This document shows positions 15,773 to 44,163 of a DNA stretch of 64,000 nucleotides, piece by piece. Below the pieces are notes generated by a model. The model saw nothing but the letters and a program-made list of their open reading frames with translations, did no database searches and was not told the DNA's origin. Both the position numbers and the translations under genes were made by a program. The stretch is from Thermodesulfovibrionia bacterium (GTDB lineage: Bacteria; Nitrospirota; Thermodesulfovibrionia; UBA6902), in the NCBI GenBank assembly GCA_030646035.1, contig JAUSMY010000046.1, positions 73,072-137,071 of the forward strand, in the 5' to 3' direction. Each line of letters opens with the position of its first letter. Position 1 is the first letter of the stretch.

Positions 15773-15782
15773 GTGATCTGAG

Positions 15783-20219: not shown

Positions 20220-20282
20220 GTTTATGACGAATATGCGAATGATAATAATTGAAAATAGAATACAAAGTGAGGAGAGATCAGT

Positions 20283-25934: not shown

Positions 25935-25949
25935 AGTGAGGGGTAGAAT

Positions 25950-32256: not shown

Positions 32257-32259
32257 GGC

Positions 32260-33342
32260 ATGACCATACTAAACAATATATATAAATTCCTCTCATCCTA
32301 TAAGCTGGCTATGGCGCTTCTGGTCATTATTCTTGCCTGCTGCCTGTCAGGGGTTACGATATGGCGCGGCGCTGAAGCATGGATGCTGATATTTAATTCG
32401 CTCTGGTTTAACGGACTTCTGTTTCTGCTGGTTATCAATGTAGCCTGCTGCTTTTTTGGCAGGATCTGGGGACGGCGGGTGACGGTCATTTCCTTCGGGA
32501 TGATCCTGTTTCACTTAAGCTTTGTCTGTATGTTCCTTGCTATTGTCTACAATACCCTGTTCTGTTTTCGTGGGGACATCAGGTTAACTGAAGGCGAATC
32601 AATCCCCAGCGGTGACTTGCAAAGTTATGATAGTGTCGAAAAAGGGCTTTTTTTCAATTTTTCGCAACTCCGTGGAGAAACATCTCTTATTAAAATGCAC
32701 GCTGATTATAAAGTTTCGGGAAACGATAAACGCGCTGCCTATGAAATATCAGTTGGAGAAGAGAACAACAAAAAGCAGGGAATTATTTACATAACTCATA
32801 AATTGACCCATCGAGGTTTCGATTATTTTAACGATAAAGAAGGATATTCTTTACTAATAATGCTCTCTGACAAAAGGGGGCAGGATCTGTATGGAGCGCA
32901 TGTCCCACTGCAGAGCATAGTGTTAGGGAAAGACATGTTTGAGTATTCTACCGGCTTCAAAGTTGAAGGTAAGGTCAAGAAGGATGTTATCCCGTTTCCT
33001 GCTCCTCCGGAAACGATCTTTGCCTTGAAGACCGAGTATATTCCATCGAAGGTCAAAGAGCGTGCAGGGGATGTTCACTACCTTCTATATCCACTTAATG
33101 AAGTAGGCCTTCCTAATCTTGACAAGCCGTTAGCAGAAGGCATGGCAGCTATCGGCGAATCATTTGCTGCCGGAGAGTATTTTCTGACAGTCAAAGAGGT
33201 GCGTTACTGGGTTGGTATGAAGGTAAGCTATGAACCGGGCAAGCCGATCGTGCTGACATCCCTCTGGGTTGCTTTGGCAGGGATGATAATTACGACTGTC
33301 GGCAGGATGGTGCGGAGAAAAGGCCCGGTCACTTCCCGTTGA
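32260..33342 (+). CDS. ccsB: cytochrome c biogenesis system II protein CcsB/ResB-like
   Basis: The N-terminus KFLSSYKLAMALLVIILACCLSGVTIW...LWFNGLLFLLVINVACC matches the ResB N-terminal TM pair. The large periplasmic domain, C-terminal TM and pairing with ccsA at 37513 support the call. Confidence 0.65.
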   Translation: MTILNNIYKFLSSYKLAMALLVIILACCLSGVTIWRGAEAWMLIFNSLWFNGLLFLLVINVACCFFGRIWGRRVTVISFGMILFHLSFVCMFLAIVYNTLFCFRGDIRLTEGESIPSGDLQSYDSVEKGLFFNFSQLRGETSLIKMHADYKVSGNDKRAAYEISVGEENNKKQGIIYITHKLTHRGFDYFNDKEGYSLLIMLSDKRGQDLYGAHVPLQSIVLGKDMFEYSTGFKVEGKVKKDVIPFPAPPETIFALKTEYIPSKVKERAGDVHYLLYPLNEVGLPNLDKPLAEGMAAIGESFAAGEYFLTVKEVRYWVGMKVSYEPGKPIVLTSLWVALAGMIITTVGRMVRRKGPVTSR

Positions 33343-33898
33343 TGATCAACACGAGATCCGTTGACAGCTGCCCGGACTTTATGAAGCCGTCTATCCTGGA
33401 ATCTTCTTTTTGAGTCCACACTCCCGGCTCAATAACCACCAGTGCCTTCTCCTGCCCGGGGATATATTTTGAGAGAGGCATGACGTGTACGCGTCCTCCC
33501 TCATGTAAAAAAATATATCCGGTATCAGTAGCAATAAGCGGTACAATTAACTCTTGCCTTGCCATTATCTCTAATACAACTTCAGACCAAAATATATCTG
33601 GAACGATATGGTAGGCTGTTCTCACGATGCCATGACGCATGGCTCTGTCAAGGTAGTCCGTTTCCGGAATAGCAATGCCTGAAAATTGCCTGTTCAGGTG
33701 ACGGGTAAAGAGAACCGCTACTCTGCCATGAACACCGGATGAGTGCCAAATACTGTCAATATCCTCTGCTGATTTGACCGCAACCGTCTTGTCAGGAATG
33801 ATAAATGACCTTTTAGCTGGCCCATATGTAAAAGTCCATACAAGCACGCAGAAGAAGAACAGCATAATTGCCGTTATGCTCAAGTTTCGAAAAGGCAT
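33329..33898 (-). CDS. membrane-anchored hypothetical protein (189 aa)
   Basis: There is an N-terminal TM (ITAIMLFFFCVLVWTF). The gene is translationally coupled to the upstream GT39 gene and has no recognisable motif. Confidence 0.45.
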   Translation of the reverse strand: MPFRNLSITAIMLFFFCVLVWTFTYGPAKRSFIIPDKTVAVKSAEDIDSIWHSSGVHGRVAVLFTRHLNRQFSGIAIPETDYLDRAMRHGIVRTAYHIVPDIFWSEVVLEIMARQELIVPLIATDTGYIFLHEGGRVHVMPLSKYIPGQEKALVVIEPGVWTQKEDSRIDGFIKSGQLSTDLVLIINGK

Positions 33899-35160
33899 CA
33901 GAAGTTACCCATATATCTGACCATGGAAAGTATGGGACGAAAGGGGACAAGGGGAACGAGCCGCGCCGAAACAAGGGGGAACATGTATACTCCCCAGATG
34001 AGTGTGGCTGAGAGGAAACATGTGTAGACCACGATTTCTTTTTTCATCTTTATGGCGCATAGTGTCACTGCCCGGGCAAGTGCAAGATAGGCAAAGGGAA
34101 GCAAAGCTATAGAAGAATAACTGAACATAGGACGCTGCGCCACGAGTACCAGCAGATAGCAACTACCAAACAGCAATGGCGTAAGCAGTTCCCGTGACAA
34201 ATGTTTTTTCCACGCATAGACGGATGCGGCGAATAATGACGGCAGGACGAGCAAGCGAAACGGTGGATTATTGGATTGCAGCAGAAAGACCCCTTCCTCA
34301 TTGTTCAGCAGCCTCTGGTGCCCCCAAAACATCGGCTTGATGAACCATTCCCACGGTTTACCTCCGGCCTCCAGAAAGGCATTGTTGACAAAAGTGCTCA
34401 TACGCTGCAATCCCCAGACTGCATCCATCTTCATCTGAATGAATTCAAAAAACGTATAGCCACGGCCAAACCACTGGGAGTAGGACAGGAGGTAGACGGC
34501 AAAAGGCAATAACAGGAGCGAAACTGTAAAATCTGTAATGACCGGGCGGGTCAGTTCTCCACGTTGGCGAATTCTATACAATGCGTACATCACCACCAGC
34601 GGGATCGCAAAGACAAAATAGGCCTTAAGAGCCATAGTCAGTCCCATGGCGATACCTGCCAGCGGCAGGACTGGCCGTTTGTTTTCAGTATATTCAAGCA
34701 GTAGATACAGATAGAGCAAAAAGAAAAAAGTAACCGGTATTTCCATGAACGTAGTGCGGGAAAGATAGATATGGTACGGATCAAACGCAAGCAGTGCGGT
34801 GGAGATGAGTGGAACTGCGCTGCCGGGATATAGCAGGCTCCCAATCAGAAAGATCAAGGCAACAGAGGCTGTCCCGAAGAATATATTGCTGCTCCGCCAA
34901 CCGACAGGGTTATCGCCAAAAATTAGAATGGTGCCATACATGATCAGGCCGCTCAACTGGGGGTGCTGCCAGTTCCAGTTGTCGGTTGTGCCATATGTGC
35001 CCAGGCTTATCGCATTCGGCACGTGGATGGCCTCATCTTCGATATATTCGTTCAGTTCAAAAGCCCCCCACAATCTTAAAACAGCAGCCAGGATCAGGAT
35101 CAGCAGGGCAAGTTTCCAACTGTTTACAAATAGTGAATCGTTCGAGAGTGCTTTATTCAT
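33898..35160 (-). CDS. GT-C fold glycosyltransferase, family 39/83-like (PMT/ArnT-type, polyprenol-phosphate-sugar dependent)
   Basis: The protein is 420 aa with about 10 TMs. The first periplasmic loop carries the DE motif (NEYIEDEAIHVPNA) characteristic of PMT/ArnT enzymes. It overlaps the GT2 gene by 4 nt. Confidence 0.65.
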   Translation of the reverse strand: MNKALSNDSLFVNSWKLALLILILAAVLRLWGAFELNEYIEDEAIHVPNAISLGTYGTTDNWNWQHPQLSGLIMYGTILIFGDNPVGWRSSNIFFGTASVALIFLIGSLLYPGSAVPLISTALLAFDPYHIYLSRTTFMEIPVTFFFLLYLYLLLEYTENKRPVLPLAGIAMGLTMALKAYFVFAIPLVVMYALYRIRQRGELTRPVITDFTVSLLLLPFAVYLLSYSQWFGRGYTFFEFIQMKMDAVWGLQRMSTFVNNAFLEAGGKPWEWFIKPMFWGHQRLLNNEEGVFLLQSNNPPFRLLVLPSLFAASVYAWKKHLSRELLTPLLFGSCYLLVLVAQRPMFSYSSIALLPFAYLALARAVTLCAIKMKKEIVVYTCFLSATLIWGVYMFPLVSARLVPLVPFRPILSMVRYMGNF

Positions 35161-35897
35161 TGTTCAGATGCAGTGCCGCTGTTTTTTACATCCGGCTTTA
35201 TGATGTGTTTTAAAATATTTATTACATACCGTAACCATACTCTGGTTACGCGCACTTTAGTCTCTCCTCCCTTACGGCGGTATTCGTGGCTGGCGACATT
35301 GATGACACGGTAGCCTCTTGCCAGCGCCTTCATCGTCATCTCCTGCTCTATGGTGGTGCTGTCCTCTCTCATATTGAGGGCTTGCCCTATATCACGAACC
35401 ACCGCGCGAAAGCCGTTCTGGGTATCACTCAAACGCGATTTCCATCGATAATTGATGGCAAGGTTAATGATCATGCTGCCGGTCAGGCGGATAAATTCTT
35501 TGGCATCTGAAAATAGTTCGTCGCTGCCGCCGGTCATGCGACAACCGATGACGATGTCTGCCTGACCGTTACGTATCGGTTCAATTAATTTTGGTATGTC
35601 GGATGCCTCGTGGGACCCGTCTGCATCGATAAAGACCACGATCGGATGGGAGGCAACCTGAAGACCTTGGCGTAGAGCCGCGCCTTTTCCTCTGCCATTA
35701 TCACAGATAACGGTTACTCCCATATCCTCAGCGATCTGTCTTGTCTGGTCGATGGAGTTGCCGTCTATTACCAATAGTTCATCGGCGTAGTTCCTGACGT
35801 CGTTCAGCACCTGTCTGATAGTAGCCTCTTCATTCAGGGCAGGCACAATGACAGTGACCTTCCACGCGCTACGGTTGCTTATAGTTGTTACATCCAT
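35157..35897 (-). CDS. GT2 glycosyltransferase (polyprenol-phosphate sugar synthase, DPM1/ArnC-like)
   Basis: The sequence VIVPALNEEATIRQVL...LLVIDGNSIDQT...VFIDADGSH carries the GT-A DxD-type signature. Confidence 0.85.
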   Translation of the reverse strand: MDVTTISNRSAWKVTVIVPALNEEATIRQVLNDVRNYADELLVIDGNSIDQTRQIAEDMGVTVICDNGRGKGAALRQGLQVASHPIVVFIDADGSHEASDIPKLIEPIRNGQADIVIGCRMTGGSDELFSDAKEFIRLTGSMIINLAINYRWKSRLSDTQNGFRAVVRDIGQALNMREDSTTIEQEMTMKALARGYRVINVASHEYRRKGGETKVRVTRVWLRYVINILKHIIKPDVKNSGTASEQ

Positions 35898-37378
35898 CGT
35901 ATGAATCCATAAAGTTTTGAGATCAGCGCCCAGATGTCGGAAGGGCGTTTAATATGGTTCTTCAGAGTGTTAATAATTCTTTTCGGGGTGAAATACCAGC
36001 GCAGCATGAGTCTGCGGCGGAGTTTCATGATCTCCCTGGCAGTCAGCTGCGGATAGTCAAGAACAGAGCTGTTGTGTTCCCATTGACTCCAATCTGCTGC
36101 GGATAGCCAACTGTTTTGTACGGCATCATTATAAAGCTGCGTCCCGGGATACGGCATTGCACAATAGTATTGCACAAAGTCGAGATTAAGGGAATTAATG
36201 AATTTAGAGGTAGTTGCAATTGTCGCATATGTGTCAGCAGGAAAGCCGATTATGACATGTCCTGTTACTTGCAATCCCGCTTTTTTTGCCAGGGTGACAG
36301 CGTGGCTGATCTGTTCAAGAGATGTCTGTTTGTTGATCTGGTTGAGAATGTTTTGATCGCCTGATTCTATCCCGAAGGCGATGTTCCAGCAGCCTGCATC
36401 TTTTATAGCCTTTAGTGTTTCGGCATCAACGGCATCAACCCGGCTATTGCAGACCCATTTGATTTGCAAGCCCGATCTGATGATAGCCTGACAGAGCTCC
36501 CTGACAAAATTCTTGTCAAGGATGAATTCCTCAGCCCAGAACATGAAGTTCGTGATCCCGAATCGTGTTACATTGTTATGCAGTTCCTGCATGATGCGAC
36601 CTGCACTGTGCCGGCGGGGAGTGCGGCCGTAGTAAACGTAGGCATTACAGAAGATACAGCGGTAGGGGCAACCCCGGTTTGTGTTGACGAGCAGGAACTT
36701 ATCGTTATTCAGGGGGAGACGGTAGTTTTCAGTATTGATGAAAGACCAATCTGGAACCGGCAGGTCGTCAAGATCCTTAATCGGTTCACGAGGTGCCGTT
36801 ACCACCAGCTGCTCTTTATCGTCAAGAAAGGCTATACCTGGTGTGCTGTGAAGTTTGTCTCCGCCAGCAAGTGCTTCAACAAGGTCACGGGCGGCGAATT
36901 CAGGTTCTCCGATGATGCAGTAGTCCACGCCGTTTTCTGCTTGCAGAATTTCTTTATATTGGCATGAGGGATGGATGCCGAAGAGAACAGTAGCTATGGA
37001 GTTAGGGCTCTCTTCTTTTATGCATGCCGCGGCATATATATCGTCCTCAATTGTGGGGGTGGACGTGTTAATAAAGACAATGTGCGGATCAAATGAACGG
37101 ACATTTGTCAGCATGGTGTGAACCGTGTCTGATGTCGCCGGGCAGTCCATAACATTGACTGTGTGTCCCCGTTCTCGCAGCAAGGTCGCTATGGTGACCA
37201 TGGTGACAGGCGCCATGATATAGCCCCAGGCACCTTTGCGCTGCATGCAACGCCCTTCCTTTACCATGACTATATTGTCTCGCCTAGGCGGGTTGAGTAT
37301 CAGGCAGTTCATGAGTACTGAAAATTGTTTTGCATACTTGACATTATCATAATCATGATGTTTGGCACAACCCGCCAT
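35888..37378 (-). CDS. cobalamin-binding (class B) radical SAM protein #1
   Basis: It has an N-terminal B12-binding domain (LILNPP...) and the CxxxCxxC motif NRGCPYRCIFC. The true start is probably the internal ATG at 37312 (MNCLILNPP). Confidence 0.85.
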   Translation of the reverse strand: MAGCAKHHDYDNVKYAKQFSVLMNCLILNPPRRDNIVMVKEGRCMQRKGAWGYIMAPVTMVTIATLLRERGHTVNVMDCPATSDTVHTMLTNVRSFDPHIVFINTSTPTIEDDIYAAACIKEESPNSIATVLFGIHPSCQYKEILQAENGVDYCIIGEPEFAARDLVEALAGGDKLHSTPGIAFLDDKEQLVVTAPREPIKDLDDLPVPDWSFINTENYRLPLNNDKFLLVNTNRGCPYRCIFCNAYVYYGRTPRRHSAGRIMQELHNNVTRFGITNFMFWAEEFILDKNFVRELCQAIIRSGLQIKWVCNSRVDAVDAETLKAIKDAGCWNIAFGIESGDQNILNQINKQTSLEQISHAVTLAKKAGLQVTGHVIIGFPADTYATIATTSKFINSLNLDFVQYYCAMPYPGTQLYNDAVQNSWLSAADWSQWEHNSSVLDYPQLTAREIMKLRRRLMLRWYFTPKRIINTLKNHIKRPSDIWALISKLYGFIRWM

Positions 37379-37512
37379 TTGAGCTGCCGGTATGCCTGAT
37401 AGGCTTGTGTCAAAATTGCCAGTGAACGCTTCAGCCTGTCTTGGAATTGTCTTAGTGTGCTTATTTGTGGTTTAATAAGAAATTAAATAAGTTATCTTTT
37501 TGAGGTGATCAA

Positions 37513-38337
37513 ATGAAGCTCGAATACATGTATTTTTGGATCGCTGTGGGACTCTACGGCGTTAGCGCATGCAGTTATATCTTCGGTCTTATTGCAAAGC
37601 AGGAGAAACTCTTCACATTCGGCCTGTATAGCGCCCTTGCCGGGTTTGTCCCTCATCTTGTTTCCATCGGACGCCGTTGGATGGAGACAGGGGTTGAACC
37701 GTTTATTACGATATCCGAGTCGATCACCTTCGGAATCTTCGTGGCGGTGCTTATCTTCCTGATATTTCAATTCACTACAAAAAAAATACGGCCTCTCGGC
37801 GTGCTTATCATGCCGGTAGCATTTGTCCTCATGGGATGGGCAGGGACACTTATCAAAGACGCGGCAACAAATCTTGTGCCTGCGCTTCAGAGTTGGTGGA
37901 TCTGGGTACATATAATAGGCGCGGCAACAGGCTTCGGTTCAGTTCTGGCAGCAGCGGGCTTGGGCTTGATGTATCTGCTCAAAGATAAATATTCCGGCGG
38001 CATATATGAACAACTGCCGGAGACTCAGATAATTGAAAATCTTAGTTACAGGTTTGTTGCCGGAGGTTTTATCATGTATGGTCTCATGATAGTATCCGGC
38101 GCCTTCTGGTCGAATACGGTGAAGGGCAGTTACTGGAACTGGGACCCGGTTGAGGTCTGGTCTCTTATCTCCTGGCTTACGTACGGGATATATCTCCATT
38201 TGCGGGCGACCTTCGGCTGGCGCGGCAGGAAGCTGGCGTGGTATGCGCTTATCGCGCTGGCAGCGATGATCATCAGTTACTGGGGAATTCCATTCACTGT
38301 GGAGACGTTTCATGCAGGGTTCCGTATTGAACACTAA
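37513..38337 (+). CDS. ccsA: cytochrome c-type biogenesis protein CcsA/ResC (heme export and ligation)
   Basis: The protein is 274 aa and polytopic. It carries the WWD-type motif GSYWNWDPVEVWSLISW and flanking His residues. Confidence 0.85.
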   Translation: MKLEYMYFWIAVGLYGVSACSYIFGLIAKQEKLFTFGLYSALAGFVPHLVSIGRRWMETGVEPFITISESITFGIFVAVLIFLIFQFTTKKIRPLGVLIMPVAFVLMGWAGTLIKDAATNLVPALQSWWIWVHIIGAATGFGSVLAAAGLGLMYLLKDKYSGGIYEQLPETQIIENLSYRFVAGGFIMYGLMIVSGAFWSNTVKGSYWNWDPVEVWSLISWLTYGIYLHLRATFGWRGRKLAWYALIALAAMIISYWGIPFTVETFHAGFRIEH

Positions 38338-38356
38338 AAAACAGACATAACTGATA

Positions 38357-38449
38357 ACCCCTCTGTATCTCCCCTTGTAAAGGGGCGAATTGTAAATCCC
38401 CTCTTTACCAAGGGGCCAACAGTAGGTGCTTTAAGCAGGGTAGGGGAGG
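38357..38449 (+). repeat. 93-bp structured intergenic repeat, copy 1
   Basis: cccctctgtatctccccttgtaaaggggcgaattgtaaatcccctctttaccaaggggccaacagtaggtgctttaagcagggtaggggagg. It has about 97% identity to copy 2 and contains the hairpin CCCCTT-GTAA-AGGGG and mutually exclusive alternative stems. Confidence 0.75.
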
Positions 38450-38502
38450 TTAATAATAATGTTAATGATATTAAATGAAAAGCTGATGGCTAATAGCTGC
38501 TA

Positions 38503-39849
38503 ATGAAATTAGCGATTATCTTCCCTCCGTTGCCTTTCGGCTGGACGCCTGTGGCGCCTCCGATACTTGAATATCTGGCAGCGCTTACACGTAGAGCTGA
38601 TCCGAGTATTGAGATCGAGCTGATCAGCGCCAGCGCCACTCCTGATGCCTTTGACAAGCTTGAGTGTGACCTCGCAGCCATCAGCATCCTGACTCCTACG
38701 GCAGTGCCGGGTTATCGAATCGCTGAGAAGCTTCGGGCGCGTGGAATTAAAGTTGTCTTCGGCAATATGCACGCTTCTGCCATGCCTGAGGAGGCCAAGC
38801 ATCATGGAGATGCGGTGGTGATAGGCGAGGCAGAATCTGTCTGGCCTGAGGTGCTGCGTGATTTCCGCGCCGGTAAGATGAAGCCGTTTTACCGTGGTGA
38901 ACAGATCTCTCTTGATGACCTGCCCACACCTCTTTACGGGCTTTTGCAAGGTAGCCGCAAACATCAATTCAGGATAGTGAATACATCCCGGGGCTGTCCG
39001 TACAACTGCACCTTTTGCTCGGTCAAACCCTTCTACGGCTCAAAGATACGTTTCCGTCCCATTGAACATGTGGTGCGCGATGTGGCTGCTATTCCTGAGA
39101 AGATGTATATAAACGGTGACGAGAACATCTGGTGGGCAGGCAAGGAGCAGAGGGCGATAGACCTCTTCACAGCGCTCAAGGGAAGCGGCAAGAAGTGGAT
39201 GGGCTTCGGCAGTCTCCGCCCTGTGCAGTCGCCTGCGGGGAAGCGAATGCTGAACGCGGCCCGTGAGAGTGGCATGCTATCTCTGTGGGTCGGTTGGGAT
39301 TCCATCTCAGACGAAGGGTTGAAGGGATATGCAGCCGACGGCAAGATCGGTGTTGACCGCGAGGCAGCGCTGCGCACTCTCAGGGATCATGGAATTGATG
39401 TGTCGCTGTTTTACATGCTTGGGTCGCGTGAGGATTCTCTTGATGATTTCAAGCGTTCCATAGAGGTTGCAGACCGGCTCGGAGTAAGCATGCATCCGTC
39501 ATTGGTTGTGCCTTATCCCGGGACAAAACTTCGTGAGCAGTATGAACCTTATCTTTATAAGGAGCTTGGCTGGGAATATTATACCGGCGCATACGCGCTT
39601 TTCGAGCATCCTGACCCCGCTATGACGCCTGAGGTGCGTGAGCAAAAGTTCTATGAAAGCGCGCTTGAAATTTTGAGCCTGCCGAGGGTGTTGCGCCATA
39701 TGTTCAAGGTTCCATTGGCCGGCTTTCCTCATGCCCACATCCTTTCACTCATGTCCCAAATACCTGTACGGCATGGCATGAAGATTGCGTATAATAAATG
39801 GAAAGATTCAAAAGAATCTGTAAATAAAAAGAGATTTAGTTACAGATAG
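38503..39849 (+). CDS. cobalamin-binding (class B) radical SAM protein #2
   Basis: The N-terminus MKLAIIFPPLP is a B12-domain start. The CxxxCxxC motif is TSRGCPYNCTFC. Confidence 0.85.
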   Translation: MKLAIIFPPLPFGWTPVAPPILEYLAALTRRADPSIEIELISASATPDAFDKLECDLAAISILTPTAVPGYRIAEKLRARGIKVVFGNMHASAMPEEAKHHGDAVVIGEAESVWPEVLRDFRAGKMKPFYRGEQISLDDLPTPLYGLLQGSRKHQFRIVNTSRGCPYNCTFCSVKPFYGSKIRFRPIEHVVRDVAAIPEKMYINGDENIWWAGKEQRAIDLFTALKGSGKKWMGFGSLRPVQSPAGKRMLNAARESGMLSLWVGWDSISDEGLKGYAADGKIGVDREAALRTLRDHGIDVSLFYMLGSREDSLDDFKRSIEVADRLGVSMHPSLVVPYPGTKLREQYEPYLYKELGWEYYTGAYALFEHPDPAMTPEVREQKFYESALEILSLPRVLRHMFKVPLAGFPHAHILSLMSQIPVRHGMKIAYNKWKDSKESVNKKRFSYR

Positions 39850-39949
39850 TAGGAATTGGCTTACAATTATGTAACAATTTTGTTGTTATGTATGACAGGT
39901 TTGTGTTCTAACTGAATTTATTGCCTTGGGAATTAAAGGAGAACCTATT

Positions 39950-41446
39950 ATGACCAATAAAGATATGGAGAATGAACGTCATCGCCTGACAGAAGATGTC
40001 CTCAGATTTATAGAAGCCGGGGTTGATGCCGATATTCCGGATTTTAATGATTACTGCATGAGGATGTTCGCCATGCACTATGAGAGCAATAAAATATTCC
40101 GTGAGTTCTGCGACGTGAAGAAGGTCAAGCCTGGCGACATCAGCCGATGGGAAGATGTTCCCATGGTCTATAACGATATGTTCAAGACGCATCTTGTTGC
40201 CTCATTTCCTCTGGAGCAGTCTGTTATGTCCTGTCTTACAGGAGGGACAACAAGCCTTACCCAGCGTGGACGCATCTTCCGGGATGAGGATGGCAAGCGC
40301 CTCGTATTTGCGGCAAACAAGATGATGACCGGTTCTTATCTGTTTCCTGATTTCGAAGATGGGAAGCGCTGCCGTATCCTTATCCTTGCACCGAGCCCGG
40401 AGCTTGCTCCGTCAATGGGAATGGCGATAGGCATGGACCAGACGCGCAGAGCTTTCGGAACGCCTGACAGTATGTTTTTGTTAGGCAAGTCAGGGATACA
40501 TATCAATGAACTTTTAAAGGCCCTGCGGGAGTCTGAAGCGAGCGGAGTGCCGGTTGCGCTGATAGGAGCGACATCTGCATATGTGTACTTTTTTCAGGCA
40601 TGCCGCAGAAAGAAGATGAAGTTCTGCCTGCCGCCCGGAAGCCGCATATGCGACGGGGGAGGATACCGCGGCAGATTCGGGCCTGTTAGCCGTGAGGATT
40701 ATTACGGGATGGTGCAGGAGATACTTAACATACCGGAATCCCATTGTGTAAATGTTTTAGGTGAAGCTGAGACTGCGACCAACCTTTTTGACGATGCTTT
40801 GCGCCGCCACATAAAGGGACTTCCGCCGCGCAAGCGCACGAGGCCTGTGCCGCCATGGGCGCGTGTCCGGGCAATGAGTATTGACGACCTCAGCCCTCTG
40901 CCGGATGGTGAGGTCGGCCTCTTTGCGCATTGGGATCTTGCAAATGTTCCTACTGTTCTGGCAGTGATCACTGATAACCTCGGCTATACGACAGATGACG
41001 GCCGCGGCTGCGAGATGGTGGGCCGCGCGAAGATCGAGGGAGGTAAGGTATCTCCGCTGCCTGATGAGGAGGCCGCAAGCCCGATGGGAGATTCGGCCAT
41101 CTTCCGTATGCTTGAGAAGTATGTGCATTTCACGATCGACCTTAAGATGCAGATGGCAAAGGACCCTAAGGTTGAACCGAGCGTGCGTGAGGAGATAGAG
41201 GCGAGGCCCGGTTCTGTCGCGTCATGCCCGCAGGTTGTTGACGAGATACTTGTAGCGCAGGCTGATGCCGAGGCAGCCGAACTCAGGGACAGATCTCTGG
41301 GCGCATTTAAGGATCAGACCGAGCGTCCTCTGGACTGGTATGCTGATGAGGAGAAGAAGCAGGTGCTTGCAGACCATCCTGCCGGTCTAAAGTCTGAGAA
41401 GCATGAGAAAGACGCTTCGAAGAATAAGGCAAAGAATAAAGAATAA
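39950..41446 (+). CDS. LuxE-like acyl-protein synthetase / adenylate-forming enzyme with a Lys/Glu-rich tail
   Basis: An aaggag RBS lies 7 nt before ATG 39950. The motifs WEDVPMVYNDMFK, CLTGGTTS and DGGGYRG parallel the LuxE motifs IPVFPTSVFK, SSGTxG and GGGWK. Confidence 0.55.
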   Translation: MTNKDMENERHRLTEDVLRFIEAGVDADIPDFNDYCMRMFAMHYESNKIFREFCDVKKVKPGDISRWEDVPMVYNDMFKTHLVASFPLEQSVMSCLTGGTTSLTQRGRIFRDEDGKRLVFAANKMMTGSYLFPDFEDGKRCRILILAPSPELAPSMGMAIGMDQTRRAFGTPDSMFLLGKSGIHINELLKALRESEASGVPVALIGATSAYVYFFQACRRKKMKFCLPPGSRICDGGGYRGRFGPVSREDYYGMVQEILNIPESHCVNVLGEAETATNLFDDALRRHIKGLPPRKRTRPVPPWARVRAMSIDDLSPLPDGEVGLFAHWDLANVPTVLAVITDNLGYTTDDGRGCEMVGRAKIEGGKVSPLPDEEAASPMGDSAIFRMLEKYVHFTIDLKMQMAKDPKVEPSVREEIEARPGSVASCPQVVDEILVAQADAEAAELRDRSLGAFKDQTERPLDWYADEEKKQVLADHPAGLKSEKHEKDASKNKAKNKE

Positions 41447-41456
41447 AGAAAAGACA

Positions 41457-41549
41457 CCCCTCTGTATCTCCCCTTGTAAAGGGGCGAATTGTAAATCCCC
41501 TCTTATCCAAGGGGCCAACAGTAGGTGCTTTAAGCAGGGCAGGGGAGGT
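41457..41549 (+). repeat. 93-bp structured intergenic repeat, copy 2
   Basis: It has the same sequence as copy 1 apart from three substitutions (cttatcc for ctttacc, gggcagg for gggtagg). It lies 32 nt upstream of ORF 41581. Confidence 0.75.
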
Positions 41550-41580
41550 TTAGGATAATGTATTTGGTCTTTATTGAACT

Positions 41581-41922
41581 ATGAAAAAAACATTGACCAT
41601 AATTATCGGTTTTGTGCATGACTTTGCTGCCGGCTGCTGGGCAGCGACTGTTCTTGCGATATATTGGCTAAGCAGTCATTCCTTTCCGGTTGAAGTCAGC
41701 GGCATAATGTTTGAACTGAAAAAGCAGCTCTTCTGGGCAGGGATAGCATGTGTTGTTATAGTTTTTGCCACAGGCACGGGCAGATCTTTTACCTATGTTG
41801 ATAATGTCTACGGCAAGGATGCGGAAAAGGCAAGAAGAAGGCTGCTGATCATAAAACACGTTATCCTTATTGTTGTTTTTGGCTCCGGTATTTTCTGGCA
41901 GTACACGATGGTTTTTTGGTAG
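41581..41922 (+). CDS. small 3-TM membrane protein, hypothetical
   Basis: The protein is 113 aa with three hydrophobic helices. It is followed by rSAM #3. Confidence 0.45.
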   Translation: MKKTLTIIIGFVHDFAAGCWAATVLAIYWLSSHSFPVEVSGIMFELKKQLFWAGIACVVIVFATGTGRSFTYVDNVYGKDAEKARRRLLIIKHVILIVVFGSGIFWQYTMVFW

Positions 41923-42007
41923 AGCACTCCTATCTTCCTAAAACATTATCAAACCACCGGTCATTTACTTGCTCAATGGTATCTGAATTGCTTAAAATAG
42001 TGACACT

Positions 42008-43468
42008 ATGAAAAAGATAAGAAAAGTTATGCTTATTACTCCGCCTTACCACTCCGGAGTTGTTGAATCCGCAGGTGTCTGGCTGAATGTTGGTTTTGTC
42101 TATATTGCAGGGAGCCTCAGGGTTGCGGGATATGACCCGATTTATTATGATGCCATGAGCCACTGGCATGGATATGATGAGATCGGGAAGAGGATTAGAG
42201 AAGAGAAACCTGATGTTATTGGGACAACCGCTTTTACCGCAGAGATCGTTGAGGCGCTAAACCTCCTGAAGTTTTCCAAAGAGATAGACCCTAATATTAT
42301 TACTGTGATCGGCAATGTTCACCCTACGTTCTGCTACGATGAGATATTCAAAGACCACCACTCATGCGTTGATTATATTGTGCGTGGTGAGGGTGAAGAG
42401 ACGATGGTGGAGCTTCTGGATGCGCTTAATTCCAATGGCGACCTGTCAAAGGTAAGGGGCGTAGTATACATGGATAAGGGGAAGGTCGTGGTCAATGATT
42501 CAAGGCCGTACATACATGACCTTGACAGCCTGCCCATGGCATGGGACCTGGTCGATTGGCCGATTTATAAATACAAGGCCATGGAGAATTCCATAATGGC
42601 TATTGTCAGCTCTTCAAGGGGATGCAACCAGCAGTGCAGCTTCTGCTCGCAGCAGCTCTTCTGGCAGAGAAACTGGAGGGGCCGAAGCGCTGAGAACTTT
42701 GTAGCCGAACTTGAGCACCTGAGAGACACCTATGGCGTAAATGTCGTGATGCTTGCTGATGAGACTCCCACGCTTTCAAGAACAAGGTGGGAGAAGATAC
42801 TGGATCTTCTCATTGAGAGGAAGGTAGGCGTGAAGCTGCTTCTTGAGACGCGCGTTGATGACATAATCAGGGACGAAGATATCATGTGGAAATACCGGGA
42901 TGCCCTTGTAGACCATATTTATCTCGGAGTGGAATCGACCTCACAGGAGGCGCTTGATAAGTTTAAAAAGAATATTAAAGTAGAGGAATCAAAGCGCGCG
43001 CTTGACCTTATAAACTCGTATGATATTGTCACAGAGACATCTTTTGTGCTCGGTATGCCTGGTGATACTGTTGAGAGTATAAGGGAGACGGTTGAGCTTG
43101 CCAAGTTCTATAATCCTGACCTTGCGTTCTTCCTTGCAATAGCCCCATGGCCTTATTCAGAGATATATCCTGAGCTTAAGGACTTTGTGGTGACAAACGA
43201 CTACAGTAAATATAATCTTGTTGAGCCTGTGGTAAAACCGAAGAATATGACCATCGATGAATTGAGGGATGAACTTGGAAGGGCGTCAAGGGTGTATTAC
43301 ATGCACAAGCTTGAGACCCTTGACTCGATGACCGAGAAGAAACGTGAGTTCATGATAAAGGTCATTCATATCATCTCTACAAGCTCTTACCTTGCGGAGA
43401 CGATGAAGGGCACATCAATGCCTGAGGATATAAAGAAACTGCTTGCGAAACTGCACCATAAAACTTAA
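42008..43468 (+). CDS. cobalamin-binding (class B) radical SAM protein #3
   Basis: The N-terminus MKKIRKVMLITPPYHSG is a B12-domain start. The CxxxCxxC motif is SSRGCNQQCSFC. Confidence 0.85.
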   Translation: MKKIRKVMLITPPYHSGVVESAGVWLNVGFVYIAGSLRVAGYDPIYYDAMSHWHGYDEIGKRIREEKPDVIGTTAFTAEIVEALNLLKFSKEIDPNIITVIGNVHPTFCYDEIFKDHHSCVDYIVRGEGEETMVELLDALNSNGDLSKVRGVVYMDKGKVVVNDSRPYIHDLDSLPMAWDLVDWPIYKYKAMENSIMAIVSSSRGCNQQCSFCSQQLFWQRNWRGRSAENFVAELEHLRDTYGVNVVMLADETPTLSRTRWEKILDLLIERKVGVKLLLETRVDDIIRDEDIMWKYRDALVDHIYLGVESTSQEALDKFKKNIKVEESKRALDLINSYDIVTETSFVLGMPGDTVESIRETVELAKFYNPDLAFFLAIAPWPYSEIYPELKDFVVTNDYSKYNLVEPVVKPKNMTIDELRDELGRASRVYYMHKLETLDSMTEKKREFMIKVIHIISTSSYLAETMKGTSMPEDIKKLLAKLHHKT

Positions 43469-43559
43469 TTCTCCCCTTGTAATTTTTCATAGATGATATA
43501 TGATGTAAATAATCAAGTTGAGTATTAATTCAGATATAAAATAAAAAGGGGGAAACGCA

Positions 43560-44099
43560 ATGAGAAAGAGATCAGGGAATCAGGGTTTTACATTGATCGA
43601 GGTAATTGTTGTTGCCGGCATAATAGCCATACTTGCAGGTGTATTGGTGCCGATGATCCTGAAGGAGATTGATGAAACAAGGATAACAAGGGCAAGTGCT
43701 GATATAAGGTCCATATCAAACGCCATACTGATATTTAAAAAAGATACAGCACAGTGGCCTGTGATGGACGGGACATGCAGCCCTAATCTGACCTTGTTAA
43801 CCGGCGGCGGCAACGCTCCTGACGGTATTGGGGCCAACGGCTGGGACAACACTGCGTCCGCAATGATCGACAGTCACCTTATGTATGATGATGACGGCTG
43901 CTATAATAACTGGAATGGTTCATATCTGCCTGTTACAAGTGCTGATCCCTGGGGGAAGCAATATGTAATTAATACCGGTAATTTTGGAGTATCCGGTTCA
44001 CCTGTGTGGATAATGTCAGCAGGGCCGAATGGAACACTTGACTCAAATGCAAACTCAACTTCCAGCGGCGGGGATGATATTGGCTTAAGGATTAAATAA
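43560..44099 (+). CDS. type IV pilin / pseudopilin (prepilin-type N-terminal methylation domain)
   Basis: The N-terminus MRKRSGNQGFTLIEVIVVAGIIAILAG has the GFTLIE prepilin-peptidase site followed by a hydrophobic helix. Confidence 0.8.
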   Translation: MRKRSGNQGFTLIEVIVVAGIIAILAGVLVPMILKEIDETRITRASADIRSISNAILIFKKDTAQWPVMDGTCSPNLTLLTGGGNAPDGIGANGWDNTASAMIDSHLMYDDDGCYNNWNGSYLPVTSADPWGKQYVINTGNFGVSGSPVWIMSAGPNGTLDSNANSTSSGGDDIGLRIK

Positions 44100-44120
44100 A
44101 TACACTGTCTTGTTATATAA

Positions 44121-44156: not shown

Positions 44157-44163
44157 TTCAGAT

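What the first reader, a model, noticed from the sequence alone, without database searches (positions are those of the whole stretch)
35888..43468. Cluster of three cobalamin-dependent radical SAM enzymes with a LuxE-like acyl-adenylating enzyme and a small membrane protein
Three class-B rSAMs sit within 7.5 kb, each with an N-terminal B12-binding domain plus CxxxCxxC. One is on the minus strand in the GT island and two are on the plus strand. Between the two plus-strand rSAM genes is a LuxE-family acyl-protein synthetase-like gene (motifs DVPMVYNDMFK / LTGGTTS / DGGGYRG) with a Lys/Glu-rich tail, followed by a 3-TM protein. Class-B rSAMs do C-methylation or C-C chemistry on unactivated carbons, and LuxE-type enzymes activate fatty acyl groups. 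The combination next to polyprenol-linked glycosyltransferases suggests tailoring of a membrane lipid or lipid-anchored glycan, for example methyl-branched or cross-linked lipids, by a pathway with no obvious characterised homolog set.
Basis: inference. Interest (0 to 1): 0.55.

Follow-up and report, generated by a model that had tools for sequence, protein, structure and literature searches.

The report
Cytochrome-maturation accessory cassette, not lipid tailoring
The flagged genes are real, but four of them are an undescribed cassette that sits beside a dedicated heme-attachment machine and giant multi-heme cytochromes in at least six bacterial phyla, which points to an unknown step in building electron-conducting proteins.

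Summary
There are three B12-binding radical SAM genes, a LuxE-family gene and a 3-TM gene at the stated coordinates. The grouping and the interpretation need revision.

It also missed a short ResB (32260-33342) and four giant multiheme cytochromes (12197-30245) upstream.

In 79 genome loci the conserved unit is ResB/CcsB, rSAM_B, LuxE-like, TM113 and rSAM_C. The LuxE-like protein is about 80-93% identical across Nitrospirota, Geobacterales and Anaeromyxobacter. The minus-strand rSAM_A is not part of this unit. It heads a variable glycosyltransferase operon.

In an actinobacterial MAG, LuxE-like, TM113, ResB and CcsB are translationally coupled with no rSAM nearby. In Thermincola and Phosphitispora, rSAM_C and LuxE-like are one fused protein placed after a 58-73-heme cytochrome, ResB and CcsB.

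rSAM_C is the sister clade of BchE, a tetrapyrrole cyclase. LuxE-like keeps the LuxE acyl-acceptor cysteine motif, which is repeated 5-7 times or more in the fusions.

My best reading is an accessory module of a dedicated System II cytochrome c maturation pathway that tethers a carboxylate, most likely heme, as a thioester for radical SAM tailoring or hand-off. The substrate is inferred, not shown. I found no literature on it.

The parts
12197..30245 (+). Four consecutive giant multiheme c-type cytochromes (1191, 1478, 1883 and 1431 aa). These are the probable clients of the cassette.
   Evidence: Pfam Cytochrome_C7, Cytochrom_c3_2, GSu_C4xC__C2xCH and MtrC/MtrF domains. Heme motifs: 72 CXXCH, 22 CX4CH and 3 CX3CH. 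Relatives of the fourth cytochrome (31-59% identity) precede PD40-ResB-CcsB in many related loci.
30502..31875 (+). PD40-type beta-propeller lipoprotein.
   Evidence: PF07676 hit. A signal peptide ending in a cysteine is visible. An ortholog lies within 10 kb of LuxE-like in 17 of 47 fully flanked loci.
32260..33342 (+). Short ResB-like protein (360 aa), the heme-handling partner of CcsB.
   Evidence: PF05140 at 45.4 bits. It is 48-70% identical to cassette ResB in other phyla. The transmembrane His in 'ILFHLSF' is conserved in at least 85% of sequences. Cassette ResB is about 360 aa against 437-453 aa for the second ResB copy in Geotalea and Thermincola.
33329..33898 (-). 189-aa membrane protein with no family match, the last gene of the glycosyltransferase operon.
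   Evidence: No Pfam or NCBIfam hit. It overlaps the upstream gene by 1 nt. A weak homolog (25%) occurs with GT2 and PMT genes between ResB and CcsB in Geomonas locus L042.
33898..35160 (-). GT-C fold glycosyltransferase (PMT/Agl23-like).
   Evidence: PF02366 at 44.2 bits and PF13231 at 38.8 bits. Homologs of 34-35% identity sit between ResB and CcsB in L038, L039, L042 and L063. TPR-bearing integral-membrane proteins of about 560 aa, which I read as GT-C/TMTC-like without running them against Pfam, are interleaved in the cassette in L006 and L007.
35157..35897 (-). GT2 glycosyltransferase of the polyprenyl-phosphate sugar synthase type.
   Evidence: PF00535 at 100.8 bits. Best NCBIfam hits are AglJ (155 bits) and dolichyl-phosphate hexose transferase, all below cut-off.
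35888..37378 (-). rSAM_A: a B12-binding radical SAM enzyme that heads the glycosyltransferase operon. It is not part of the conserved core.
   Evidence: Pfam hits. Best NCBIfam hits are HpnJ at 237.8 bits (cut-off 577.6) and BchE at 210.6 bits. An ortholog is found only in L009 (79%); elsewhere only 22-31% paralog-level hits to rSAM_C appear. It falls outside the BchE/rSAM_C clade in the NJ tree.
37513..38337 (+). CcsB/ResC-type cytochrome c assembly protein (heme channel and lyase subunit). It is the first gene of the plus-strand run.
   Evidence: PF01578 at 115.7 bits; TIGR03144 at 174.7 bits, just under the 187.6 cut-off. It is 64-91% identical to cassette CcsB in other phyla but only 33% identical to the second CcsB of Geotalea. 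The WWD motif (YWNWDPVEVW) and three His residues are conserved across 56 sequences.
38503..39849 (+). rSAM_B: a B12-binding radical SAM enzyme of no named family, and a highly conserved core member.
   Evidence: Pfam hits. Best NCBIfam hit is TIGR04013 at 74 bits (cut-off 251). It is 73-88% identical across Nitrospirota, Geobacterales and Anaeromyxobacter. It lies within 10 kb of LuxE-like in 34 of 47 loci.
39950..41446 (+). LuxE-family acyl-protein-synthetase-like enzyme. It has a roughly 65-residue insertion before the acyl-acceptor Cys motif (C426, 'SCPQVVDEIL') and a basic tail. It is the hub of the cassette.
   Evidence: PF04443 at 65.1 bits. 7XC6_E at E = 8e-15, with R240 aligned to the catalytic K238 of LuxE. 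It is 77-93% identical across the three Gram-negative phyla. The Cys motif was found in 66 of 68 family members and in the Firmicutes fusions. The LuxE tail motif TRxxKGCxLS carries the acyl-acceptor Cys364 (PMC9157457).
41581..41922 (+). TM113: a 3-TM membrane protein with two invariant histidines (F-x-H-D in TM1, K-H in TM3).
   Evidence: Alignments. An HMM finds it next to LuxE-like in 39 of 47 loci, including Actinomycetota and Betaproteobacteria. The only Pfam similarity is a sub-threshold CopD hit of 20.7 bits (cut-off 32.1).
42008..43468 (+). rSAM_C: a BchE-like B12-binding radical SAM enzyme.
   Evidence: TIGR02026 (BchE) at 401.6 bits (cut-off 481), next best 153 bits. Orthologs score 383-405 bits. 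It is 37% identical to a protein annotated as BchE and 44% identical to the N-terminal half of the Thermincola fusion. It forms the sister clade of the BchE-annotated sequences in the NJ tree.
43560..44099 (+). T2SS-G-type pseudopilin that recurs inside or next to the cassette. It is followed by a convergent T2SS-like cluster (44164-51733).
   Evidence: PF07963 and PF08334. Orthologs occur in 12 related loci, some between LuxE-like and rSAM_C. Secretin, PilO-like, T2SSF and T2SSE genes follow.

Best explanation
The plus-strand genes CcsB, rSAM_B, LuxE-like, TM113 and rSAM_C, together with the short ResB upstream, form an accessory cassette of a dedicated System II cytochrome c maturation pathway. 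That pathway serves the giant multiheme cytochromes encoded next door.

Proposed mechanism:
1. The cytoplasmic LuxE-like enzyme adenylates a carboxylate and moves it as a thioester onto the cysteine of its own flexible C-terminal motif. This is LuxE chemistry.
2. The tethered substrate is presented to the BchE-like rSAM_C, which is fused to the LuxE-like enzyme in Firmicutes, and to rSAM_B for radical, cobalamin-dependent tailoring.
3. The product is passed through the two-histidine membrane protein TM113 to ResB/CcsB, which export it and attach it to the cytochromes.
4. The most likely carboxylate is a heme propionate. The module would then be a covalent heme-loading and heme-tailoring line.

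Shown: the gene content, the cross-phylum synteny, the gene fusion, the conserved catalytic and tail-Cys motifs, and the BchE-sister position of rSAM_C.

Inferred: that the genes act on one substrate, that the substrate is heme, and what the rSAMs do to it.

The minus-strand rSAM_A, GT2, GT-C and 189-aa genes form a separate, variable glycosylation operon. It probably decorates the same exported proteins through a lipid-linked, rSAM-modified sugar.
For: 1. Synteny. Of 47 related loci with at least 6 kb on both sides of LuxE-like, 40 carry cassette-type CcsB, 39 TM113, 36 rSAM_C and 34 rSAM_B within 10 kb. Examples are Geotalea uraniireducens and Anaeromyxobacter oryzae.
2. Minimal operon. In actinobacterial MAG locus L071, LuxE-like, TM113, ResB and CcsB have overlapping stop and start codons. 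They sit between relA and hisS/aspS, with no rSAM or glycosyltransferase nearby. L079 has the order ResB, CcsB, TM113, LuxE-like.
3. Gene fusion. Thermincola and Phosphitispora encode rSAM_C and LuxE-like as one 975-1005-aa protein, placed directly after a 58- or 73-heme cytochrome, a short ResB and CcsB. In Thermincola a second ResB/CcsB pair and hemA/hemC/hemD follow.
4. Distant LuxE-like genes (48-56% identity) in Actinomycetota, Aromatoleum and Novimethylophilus still sit beside multiheme cytochromes, ResB or NHL propellers.
5. rSAM_C is far closer to BchE, a tetrapyrrole propionate-ester cyclase, than to any other curated B12-rSAM family: about 400 bits against about 150.
6. LuxE-like keeps the GGG(Y/W)(R/K) and GR catalytic positions and the tail Cys motif. 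The motif is repeated 5-7 times or more in the fusions, like tandem carrier domains.
7. Cassette CcsB keeps the WWD motif and the heme-ligand histidines. TM113 has two invariant transmembrane histidines.
8. The nearest non-cassette LuxE relatives (about 374 aa) pair with LuxC instead. The tail Cys normally hands its acyl group to a partner enzyme, and in this clade the partner has changed.
Against: - There is no biochemical evidence of any kind. The substrate is inferred only from neighbours and from the BchE relationship.
- Known LuxE substrates are fatty acids, and the nearest relatives pair with LuxC reductases. A fatty acyl substrate is therefore the family default.
- Published cytochrome-nanowire structures that I recall show ordinary heme c (my own knowledge, not checked here).
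- rSAM_B has no informative relatives.
- The actinobacterial minimal operon lacks rSAMs, so tailoring cannot be the universal role of LuxE-like.
- TM113 shows no detectable similarity to known heme-binding families.
- The AlphaFold model of LuxE-like was unusable (pLDDT 46).
- Glycosyltransferases and pseudopilins also recur in these islands. Co-location may reflect a shared client rather than a shared substrate.
- The locus set came from peptide-pattern scans and is biased towards close relatives.
Confidence: 0.45

Rival explanations
1. The LuxE-like enzyme activates a fatty acid. The B12-rSAMs methylate or cross-link the thioester-bound acyl chain. The product becomes a specialised membrane lipid, a lipid anchor or a lipid-linked glycan for the cell envelope around the cytochromes.
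For: - LuxE's characterised substrate is myristate (PMC9157457).
- The closest short relatives pair with LuxC fatty-acyl reductases.
- All three rSAMs show weak similarity to the 'lipid biosynthesis B12/rSAM' family TIGR04072 (62-103 bits).
- GT2, GT-C/PMT, lipoprotein and propeller-lipoprotein genes recur in the islands.
Against: - The TIGR04072 scores are far below its cut-off of 360 and below the scores for other families.
- Glycosyltransferases are absent from the Firmicutes and actinobacterial loci, where LuxE-like is still fused to rSAM_C or translationally coupled to ResB/CcsB.
- No acyl carrier, acyltransferase, reductase or lipid-synthesis gene is conserved in the cassette.
- The model gives no reason for the tight coupling to a heme lyase.
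Confidence: 0.2
2. The module is a pure heme chaperone or loader. LuxE-like and TM113 use ATP to capture cytoplasmic heme and feed it, chemically unchanged, into the dedicated ResB/CcsB channel at the high rate needed for polypeptides with 40-75 hemes. The covalent intermediate would be functionally analogous to CcmE in System I. The rSAMs would be lineage-specific extras with another role.
For: - The minimal operon LuxE-like, TM113, ResB, CcsB has no rSAM.
- The common feature of the neighbouring clients is a very high heme count rather than an unusual motif: 58 and 73 CXXCH with only one CX4CH each in Thermincola and Phosphitispora.
- How heme reaches System II from the cytoplasm is an open question (PMC10470608 abstract).
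Against: - The rSAM_C::LuxE fusion and the 73-88% conservation of rSAM_B argue that the rSAMs act on the tethered group.
- There is no precedent for adenylation of heme.
Confidence: 0.15
3. The chemistry is peptide-directed. Either the repeated Cys-containing tail motifs are themselves the rSAM substrate, giving a peptide-derived cofactor or RiPP-like product, or the rSAMs modify the apocytochromes before export.
For: - The fusions carry 5-7 or more tandem copies of a 14-15-residue Cys motif, which resembles a multi-core precursor peptide.
- B12-rSAMs include peptide C-methyltransferases. rSAM_C scores 112 bits on TIGR03975 and 137 bits on ApyD.
Against: - By position and sequence the motif is homologous to the LuxE acyl-acceptor tail and to the terminal RGCS motif of the LuxC-paired relatives. 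That favours a carrier role.
- Most family members have a single copy.
- No protease, exporter or leader-recognition protein is conserved.
- rSAM_C scores roughly three times higher on BchE than on any peptide-modifying family.
Confidence: 0.1
4. There is no shared function. The genes are unrelated passengers that travel together on a horizontally transferred extracellular-electron-transfer island.
For: - LuxE-like is 80-93% identical across phyla while the flanking cytochromes are only 31-59% identical. This shows horizontal transfer of the block.
- Islands of this kind collect many maturation and secretion genes.
Against: - The gene fusion.
- Translational coupling in L071.
- Persistence of the LuxE-like, TM113 and CcsB association at 48-56% identity in lineages where every other island gene differs.
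Confidence: 0.05

Closest known systems
[quoted passage not shown]
   Same: - Same fold family: Pfam hit above the gathering score, and E = 8e-15 to 7XC6_E.
- The P-loop-like TGGTTS and GGG(Y/W)(R/K) motifs are present.
- It has the GR motif and a flexible C-terminal Cys motif. In LuxE that cysteine receives the acyl group from acyl-AMP.
   Different: - Only about 22% identical, and 59 bits against the 550-bit NCBIfam equivalog cut-off.
- It has no LuxC partner.
- About 65 residues are inserted before the Cys motif, and the motif is tandemly repeated in the Firmicutes fusions.
- Arg replaces the catalytic Lys238.
- Its partners are B12-rSAMs, a membrane protein and ResB/CcsB.
- It is extremely conserved across phyla.
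BchE, the anaerobic Mg-protoporphyrin IX monomethyl ester oxidative cyclase (TIGR02026)
   Same: - rSAM_C has the same B12-binding plus radical SAM architecture.
- It aligns over model positions 1-448 of 497 at 402 bits.
- It is 37% identical to proteins annotated as BchE and forms their sister clade.
- BchE acts on an esterified tetrapyrrole propionate. The proposed substrate here, a thioesterified heme propionate, would parallel that.
   Different: - The score is below the equivalog cut-off of 481 bits.
- The protein is shorter (486 aa against about 550-590 aa).
- It occurs in non-phototrophs with no bacteriochlorophyll genes nearby.
- It is partnered with, or fused to, a LuxE-like enzyme instead of following the BchM methyltransferase.
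Dedicated System II (CcsBA / ResBC) cytochrome c heme-lyase paralogs, such as the motif-specific CcsA isoenzymes of Wolinella succinogenes (my own knowledge)
   Same: A second ResB/CcsB pair is encoded beside its presumed client cytochromes. It is distinct from another pair in the same genome (33% identity to the second Geotalea CcsB). The WWD motif and heme-ligand histidines are conserved.
   Different: - Specialisation does not track an unusual heme-binding motif: CX4CH is abundant in this window but nearly absent in Thermincola and Phosphitispora.
- The pair comes with cytoplasmic ATP- and SAM-dependent enzymes and a small two-histidine membrane protein. No described System II has these.
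CcmE, the covalent heme chaperone of System I
   Same: The similarity is functional only. Heme would be held covalently on a carrier before delivery to the lyase, with ATP spent upstream.
   Different: There is no sequence or fold relationship. CcmE is periplasmic and binds a heme vinyl through histidine. Here the carrier would be cytoplasmic and bind a propionate through a cysteine thioester. This is entirely hypothetical.
HpnJ with HpnI/HpnK (hopanoid sugar tailoring), as the closest analogue of the rSAM_A plus glycosyltransferase operon
   Same: A B12-rSAM is encoded with a GT2 glycosyltransferase. HpnJ is the top curated hit of rSAM_A (238 bits) and acts on a lipid-linked sugar (my own knowledge).
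   Different: - The score is far below the 578-bit cut-off.
- None of the window genes I annotated matches a hopanoid family; about a third of the larger ORFs were not scanned.
- The partners are a polyprenyl-phosphate-sugar-type GT2 and a GT-C/PMT-like transferase. That suggests protein or glycan glycosylation in the periplasm.

Membership tests
LuxE acyl-protein synthetase (PF04443 / NF052244) | Profile match above the curated threshold | tested here: inconclusive
   Pfam PF04443 scores 65.1 bits against a gathering score of 24.9, which is met. The NCBIfam equivalog NF052244 scores 59.2 bits against 550, which is not met. The protein belongs to the superfamily but is not an equivalog.
LuxE acyl-protein synthetase (PF04443 / NF052244) | Catalytic Lys238/Arg355 pair | tested here: inconclusive
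   In the phmmer alignment to 7XC6_E, K238 aligns with R240, which is invariant in the clade. The alignment ends before R355. An invariant 'GR(359)AK' follows at the expected position. Residue roles are taken from PMC9157457.
LuxE acyl-protein synthetase (PF04443 / NF052244) | Conserved cysteine in a flexible C-terminal motif that accepts the acyl group | tested here: met
   C426 lies in 'SCPQVVDEIL'. The motif C-x-x-[VILMA]-x-[DE]-E-[ILMV]-[ILMV] was found in 66 of 68 clade members. A related motif sits at the extreme C-terminus of the roughly 374-aa relatives ('RGCSIxxDELL'). It is repeated 5-7 times or more in the fusions.
LuxE acyl-protein synthetase (PF04443 / NF052244) | Works with an adjacent LuxC acyl-protein reductase | tested here: not met
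   No PF05893 gene occurs in the window or in loci L003, L005, L085 or L086. The nearest short relatives do have LuxC immediately downstream.
BchE anaerobic cyclase (TIGR02026) | Score at or above the equivalog cut-off (481.35 bits) | tested here: not met
   rSAM_C scores 401.6 bits. Orthologs from Geotalea, Anaeromyxobacter and Novimethylophilus score 404.6, 383.0 and 398.7 bits.
BchE anaerobic cyclase (TIGR02026) | Placement inside the clade of sequences annotated as BchE | tested here: not met
   The NJ tree puts rSAM_C, the fusions and the SRPBCC-fused relatives in a clade sister to the BchE-annotated sequences. No bootstrap was run.
BchE anaerobic cyclase (TIGR02026) | Occurs with (bacterio)chlorophyll biosynthesis genes | tested here: not met
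   None of the window genes or related-locus genes I annotated matches a Bch/Chl family. Whole genomes were not examined, and about a third of the larger window ORFs were not scanned.
Class B (cobalamin-binding) radical SAM enzymes | N-terminal B12-binding domain plus a radical SAM core with CX3CX2C | tested here: met
   PF02310 and PF04055 exceed their gathering scores in all three proteins. CX3CX2C is visible in each translation. Actual cobalamin binding cannot be tested here.
HpnJ (TIGR03471) | Score at or above the equivalog cut-off (577.6 bits) | tested here: not met
   rSAM_A scores 237.8 bits, rSAM_C 121.7 bits and rSAM_B 44.7 bits.
System II cytochrome c biogenesis (ResB + CcsB/ResC) | CcsB with a WWD heme-handling motif flanked by conserved histidines, and ResB with a transmembrane histidine | tested here: met
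   PF01578 scores 115.7 bits and PF05140 45.4 bits. TIGR03144 scores 174.7 bits against 187.6, just below cut-off. 'YWNWDPVEVW', WVH, YLH and the C-terminal FH are conserved in 56 sequences, and the ResB 'FH' in at least 85% of 22 sequences.
CopD copper-resistance protein (PF05425), tested for TM113 | Profile match above the gathering score (32.1 bits) | tested here: not met
   Four of seven orthologs from five phyla score 0-26 bits, all below 32.1, and the other three show no hit. No other family appears at E up to 5.

The most novel reading that the evidence does not exclude
The cassette makes a chemically modified heme. The LuxE-like enzyme thioesterifies a heme propionate onto its tail cysteine. 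This thioester plays the role that the BchM methyl ester plays for BchE. The BchE-like rSAM_C, with rSAM_B, then performs radical chemistry on the tethered tetrapyrrole, for example closing an isocyclic ring or C-methylating it. The dedicated ResB/CcsB pair attaches the tailored heme to the giant extracellular cytochromes. These cytochromes would then carry a previously unknown c-type heme variant made by a new branch of tetrapyrrole biosynthesis.
Probability: 0.2. Interest if true: 0.95.

Novelty: new variant of a known kind. Interest (0 to 1): 0.78.

Why it matters
Giant multiheme cytochromes carry extracellular electron transfer in metal reducers, electrode biofilms and subsurface communities. 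How a cell loads dozens of hemes onto one exported polypeptide, and how cytoplasmic heme reaches the System II lyase, are both unsolved.

This cassette is a concrete candidate for that step, and it can be tested genetically. It is present in cultured strains: Geotalea uraniireducens Rf4, Anaeromyxobacter oryzae, Geomonas species and Thermincola potens and ferriacetica.

If the substrate is heme, this would be the first ATP- and radical-SAM-dependent accessory pathway of cytochrome c maturation. It might also reveal a new heme modification. If the substrate is something else, the cassette still defines a widespread, highly conserved and unannotated function tied to electron-conduit biogenesis.

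It also bears on annotation. rSAM_C-type proteins, and even LuxE-only proteins, are often labelled 'anaerobic Mg-protoporphyrin IX monomethyl ester cyclase' in non-phototrophs.

Tried and rejected
- **Dedicated lyase for CX4CH motifs.** Attractive for this window, which has 22 CX4CH. Rejected as a general explanation because the client cytochromes in Thermincola and Phosphitispora have 58 and 73 CXXCH and only one CX4CH each.
- **TM113 as a HemJ or CopD relative.** Only sub-threshold CopD hits appeared. No HemJ/UPF0093 hit appeared at E up to 5.
- **AlphaFold2 model of LuxE-like.** Built from a 24-sequence alignment of 79-92% identity. Mean pLDDT was 46, so it was unusable and no fold search was run.
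- **Riboswitch search.** Rfam found only two tRNAs in the window and no cobalamin or SAM riboswitch.
- **Promoter and terminator scan of 31800-44300.** No convincing terminator lies between the plus-strand genes. Hit counts are only modestly above the shuffled controls (30 against 19.6, and 16 against 10.0), so this is uninformative. An operon is inferred only from the shared strand and gaps of 85-165 bp.
- **Context of the closest non-cassette rSAM_C relatives** (BchE-like fused to an SRPBCC domain, about 645 aa). Neighbours are a LysR regulator and TusA. This gives no clue to the substrate.
- **Literature.** Nine full-text searches combined LuxE or acyl-protein synthetase, radical SAM or B12, CcsB/ResB/CcsBA, multiheme, Geobacter and Thermincola. 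None found a paper describing the association. One preprint (10.1101/2025.10.22.684050) notes resB/ccsB and GT2/4/39 glycosylation clusters beside OmcE loci.
- **Treating the three rSAMs as one pathway.** Rejected. rSAM_A lacks orthologs in the related loci and falls outside the rSAM_C/BchE clade.

Full report
**What is in the interval**

- rSAM_A (35888-37378, minus strand), rSAM_B (38503-39849) and rSAM_C (42008-43468) each have a B12-binding domain and a radical SAM domain above Pfam's gathering scores. Each also has a CX3CX2C motif.
- The gene between the two plus-strand rSAMs (39950-41446) matches Pfam LuxE at 65 bits (cut-off 24.9). It matches the solved LuxE chain 7XC6_E at E = 8e-15. 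A database record has exactly the 498-aa product that starts at the ATG.
- The 113-aa gene (41581-41922) has three hydrophobic segments.
- No protein reaches the curated cut-off of any named NCBIfam family. rSAM_A scores 238 bits on HpnJ (cut-off 578). rSAM_C scores 402 bits on BchE (cut-off 481). rSAM_B scores at most 74 bits on anything.

- A CcsB/ResC-type cytochrome c assembly gene lies inside the interval at 37513-38337 (PF01578, 116 bits). It is the first gene of the plus-strand run.
- A short ResB (32260-33342) lies just upstream, on the far side of the minus-strand genes.
- Further upstream are four consecutive giant multiheme cytochromes (12197-30245). Together they carry 72 CXXCH, 22 CX4CH and 3 CX3CH motifs. 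A PD40 propeller lipoprotein follows them.
- Downstream are a pseudopilin and a T2SS-like cluster.

The best LuxE-like matches (92-94%) are from Nitrospirota MAGs, so the window is probably from that phylum.

**Which genes belong together**

The LuxE-like protein has hundreds of homologs at 79-94% identity. They come from Nitrospirota, from Geobacterales (Geotalea, Geomonas, Citrifermentans, Geobacter argillaceus) and from Anaeromyxobacter.

I fetched 79 genome loci and compared them with the window proteins by tblastn and family HMMs. Among 47 loci with at least 6 kb on both sides of LuxE-like, the counts within 10 kb were:

| Gene | Loci (of 47) |
|---|---|
| Cassette-type CcsB | 40 |
| TM113 | 39 |
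| rSAM_C | 36 |
| rSAM_B | 34 |
| ResB | 19 |
| PD40 | 17 |

Identities to the window differ sharply by gene:

| Gene | Identity to window (%) |
|---|---|
| LuxE-like | 77-93 |
| rSAM_B | 73-88 |
| CcsB | 64-91 |
| rSAM_C | 53-85 |
| ResB | 48-70 |
| TM113 | 31-81 |
| Fourth cytochrome | 31-59 |

rSAM_A has an ortholog in only one locus (L009, 79%).
- It heads its own operon, with gene overlaps of 10, 4 and 1 nt. The operon contains a GT2 of the polyprenyl-phosphate-sugar-synthase type, a GT-C/PMT-like transferase and a 189-aa membrane protein.
- A similar GT2, 189-aa and PMT insert, without the rSAM, sits between ResB and CcsB in Geomonas (L042, with partial versions in L038, L039 and L063).
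- Other Nitrospirota loci carry different glycosyltransferase and rSAM sets at this position.

The 'three rSAM cluster' is therefore two things. One is a variable glycosylation operon that includes rSAM_A. The other is a conserved core: ResB/CcsB, rSAM_B, LuxE-like, TM113 and rSAM_C.

**Evidence that the core is functionally tied to System II cytochrome c maturation**

1. *A minimal coupled operon.* In actinobacterial MAG locus L071, LuxE-like (54% identical to the window protein), a TM113 homolog, ResB and CcsB have overlapping stop and start codons. They sit between relA and hisS/aspS. No rSAM, glycosyltransferase or cytochrome is nearby. L079, from a cathode-associated Coriobacteriaceae strain, has the order ResB, CcsB, TM113, LuxE-like.
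2. *A gene fusion.* A search of 1.8 billion cluster representatives found B12-rSAM::LuxE fusion proteins in Thermincola potens, Thermincola ferriacetica, Phosphitispora fastidiosa and other Firmicutes.
   - The N-terminal half is 44% identical to window rSAM_C. The C-terminal half is 40% identical to window LuxE-like.
   - In T. ferriacetica the gene order is: a 2108-aa cytochrome with 58 CXXCH, a short ResB (359 aa), CcsB, the fusion, an NHL propeller and a further cytochrome. A second, longer ResB/CcsB pair and hemA/hemC/hemD follow.
   - P. fastidiosa has the same order behind a cytochrome with 73 CXXCH.
3. *Distant members keep the association.* LuxE-like genes of 48-56% identity in other Actinomycetota, Aromatoleum and Novimethylophilus still sit next to large multiheme cytochromes, ResB, NHL propellers and, in the two betaproteobacteria, rSAM_C.
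4. *The cassette ResB/CcsB looks like a working specialised paralog.*
   - It is 74% identical between the window and Geotalea, but only 33% identical to the second Geotalea CcsB.
   - It keeps the WWD motif and the heme-ligand histidines.
   - Cassette ResB is about 360 aa, against 437-453 aa for the second copies.

**What the individual proteins suggest**

*rSAM_C.* Its orthologs score 383-405 bits on the BchE model, and the next family scores about 150 bits. It is 37% identical to a protein annotated as BchE. In a neighbour-joining tree it groups with the fusions and with SRPBCC-fused relatives, as the sister clade of the BchE-annotated sequences. rSAM_A falls outside this group and rSAM_B is far away. 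The tree has no bootstrap. BchE acts on the esterified propionate of a tetrapyrrole.

*LuxE-like.* It keeps the TGGTTS and GGG(Y)(R) motifs. R240 aligns with the catalytic K238 of LuxE. According to PMC9157457, LuxE transfers the acyl group from acyl-AMP to Cys364 in a flexible tail motif, TRxxKGCxLS.
- The window protein has an invariant Cys426 in 'SCPQVVDEIL', after an insertion of about 65 residues.
- A related motif forms the extreme C-terminus of the nearest relatives of about 374 aa ('RGCSIxxDELL').
- The motif is repeated five to seven times or more in tandem in the fusions ('HSHPCSTVADEML' repeats).
- Those short relatives are each followed directly by LuxC.

Across this superfamily the tail cysteine is therefore a carrier that delivers a thioester to a partner enzyme. 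In the cytochrome-associated clade the partner has changed from LuxC to a BchE-like rSAM.

*TM113.* It has two histidines, in 'FxHD' and 'KH', that are invariant in all phyla. It has no significant family match.

**Best explanation**

Every enzyme in the core is cytoplasmic. To my knowledge, the only small molecule that ResB/CcsB carries out of the cytoplasm is heme.

The most economical reading has four steps:
1. LuxE-like activates a heme propionate and tethers it to its tail cysteine.
2. rSAM_C and rSAM_B tailor the tethered tetrapyrrole.
3. TM113 and ResB/CcsB take it across the membrane.
4. ResB/CcsB attach it to the giant cytochromes.

The gene associations, the fusion and the motifs are shown. 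The shared substrate, its identity as heme and the rSAM chemistry are inferred. I give the whole chain a confidence of 0.45. The weaker claim that the core is an accessory of dedicated cytochrome c maturation is much firmer, roughly 0.85 in my judgement.

**Rival explanations**

It does not explain the coupling to a heme lyase in loci that have no glycosyltransferases.
- *Heme loader without tailoring, 0.15.* It fits the rSAM-free minimal operon and the very high heme counts of the clients. It does not fit the fusion.
- *Peptide-directed chemistry on the repeated tails or on the apocytochromes, 0.1.*
- *Mere co-transfer of unrelated genes, 0.05.*

The idea of a lyase specialised for CX4CH motifs was rejected. 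The Firmicutes client cytochromes have almost none.

**Novelty**

NCBIfam has no dedicated model for any of the four core proteins. Source annotations are generic or wrong: 'LuxE/PaaK family acyltransferase', 'hypothetical protein', and 'anaerobic magnesium-protoporphyrin IX monomethyl ester cyclase' even for LuxE-only proteins. Nine full-text searches found no description of the association.

The parts belong to known families, and the host pathway, System II, is known. I therefore rate the finding as a new variant of a known kind. I give a 0.2 chance that it is a truly new branch of heme chemistry.

**Limits**

- The related loci were found by peptide-pattern scans and word-indexed searches, which favour close relatives. 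Absence in other genomes was not tested.
- The tree has no support values.
- The structure prediction failed.
- Operon structure in the window is inferred from the shared strand and short gaps only.

Noticed in passing
window 12197-30245: Four back-to-back giant multiheme cytochromes (1191-1883 aa). About 23% of their heme motifs are CX4CH (22 of 97). The fourth is 1431 aa but has only 12 heme motifs.
   Followed up: partly
window 9310-12171: A 790-aa NHL-repeat and PKD-domain protein and a 160-aa secreted protein with no family match lie directly upstream of the cytochromes. NHL propellers also accompany the cassette in Thermincola, Phosphitispora, Novimethylophilus and Anaeromyxobacter.
   Followed up: partly
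window 43560-51733: A pseudopilin directly follows rSAM_C, and a convergent T2SS-like cluster follows it (secretin, PilO-like, a second pseudopilin, T2SSF, T2SSE). Orthologs of the pseudopilin occur in 12 related loci, sometimes between LuxE-like and rSAM_C. It may belong to the cassette in Nitrospirota.
   Followed up: partly
P0129 residues ~895-970; P0271, P0275-P0283 C-termini: The Firmicutes rSAM_C::LuxE fusions end in 5-7 or more near-perfect tandem repeats of a 14-15-residue His/Cys motif (for example HSHPCSTVADEMLRA). Copy number differs between close strains: 5 full-motif matches in T. ferriacetica and 7 in T. potens.
   Followed up: partly
L003 7837-8319 and 22 other loci: A lipoprotein of about 170 aa with no family match lies between CcsB and rSAM_B in 23 related loci. 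The window has no counterpart.
   Followed up: no
L010, L014, L018, L023, L034, L035, L043, L051, L059; L033, L040, L044, L045, L047, L056, L061, L084: Some loci carry a second rSAM_B paralog (HMM score about 700 against about 860). Several Geobacteraceae loci carry a second cassette-type CcsB next to TM113.
   Followed up: no
L029, L041, L055, L056, L061, L084 (downstream of rSAM_C): By eye, from the sequences, these look like NikR-, CbiQ- and CbiO-type genes (a nickel/cobalt ECF transporter with its regulator) next to the B12-dependent rSAM_C in Geobacter-type loci. This may relate to cobalt supply.
   Followed up: no
P0285-P0339; loci L087, L088: A large group of proteins of about 645 aa consists of a BchE-like rSAM fused to an SRPBCC/polyketide-cyclase domain. 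It occurs in Nitrospirota and others and is the nearest non-cassette relative of rSAM_C. Members are often annotated as BchE. Their neighbours are a LysR regulator and TusA, and their function is unknown.
   Followed up: partly
L089 2288-11757: A Desulfobacterota locus has this gene order: B12-rSAM, homocitrate-synthase-like, aconitase large and small subunits, FAD oxidoreductase, LuxE, LuxC, U32 peptidase. This looks like a 2-oxoacid elongation pathway feeding a LuxE/LuxC carboxylate reductase in a non-luminous anaerobe.
   Followed up: no
L030 10613-11191: This Nitrospirota locus has a duplicated or degenerate TM113 in one reading frame. Its first copy lacks the canonical FxHD motif (GHGHN instead).
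   Followed up: no
window 216-390: tRNA-Pro(CGG) and tRNA-Arg(CCT) lie at the window start. They are the only Rfam matches in 64 kb. tRNA genes are common integration points, and the LuxE core looks horizontally transferred, but I did not look for island boundaries.
   Followed up: no
window 52114-58353: A sulfur-transport (PF04143) protein, a DUF1302-like outer-membrane protein and an MMPL/RND-type transporter lie downstream of the T2SS cluster. I saw no link to the finding.
   Followed up: no
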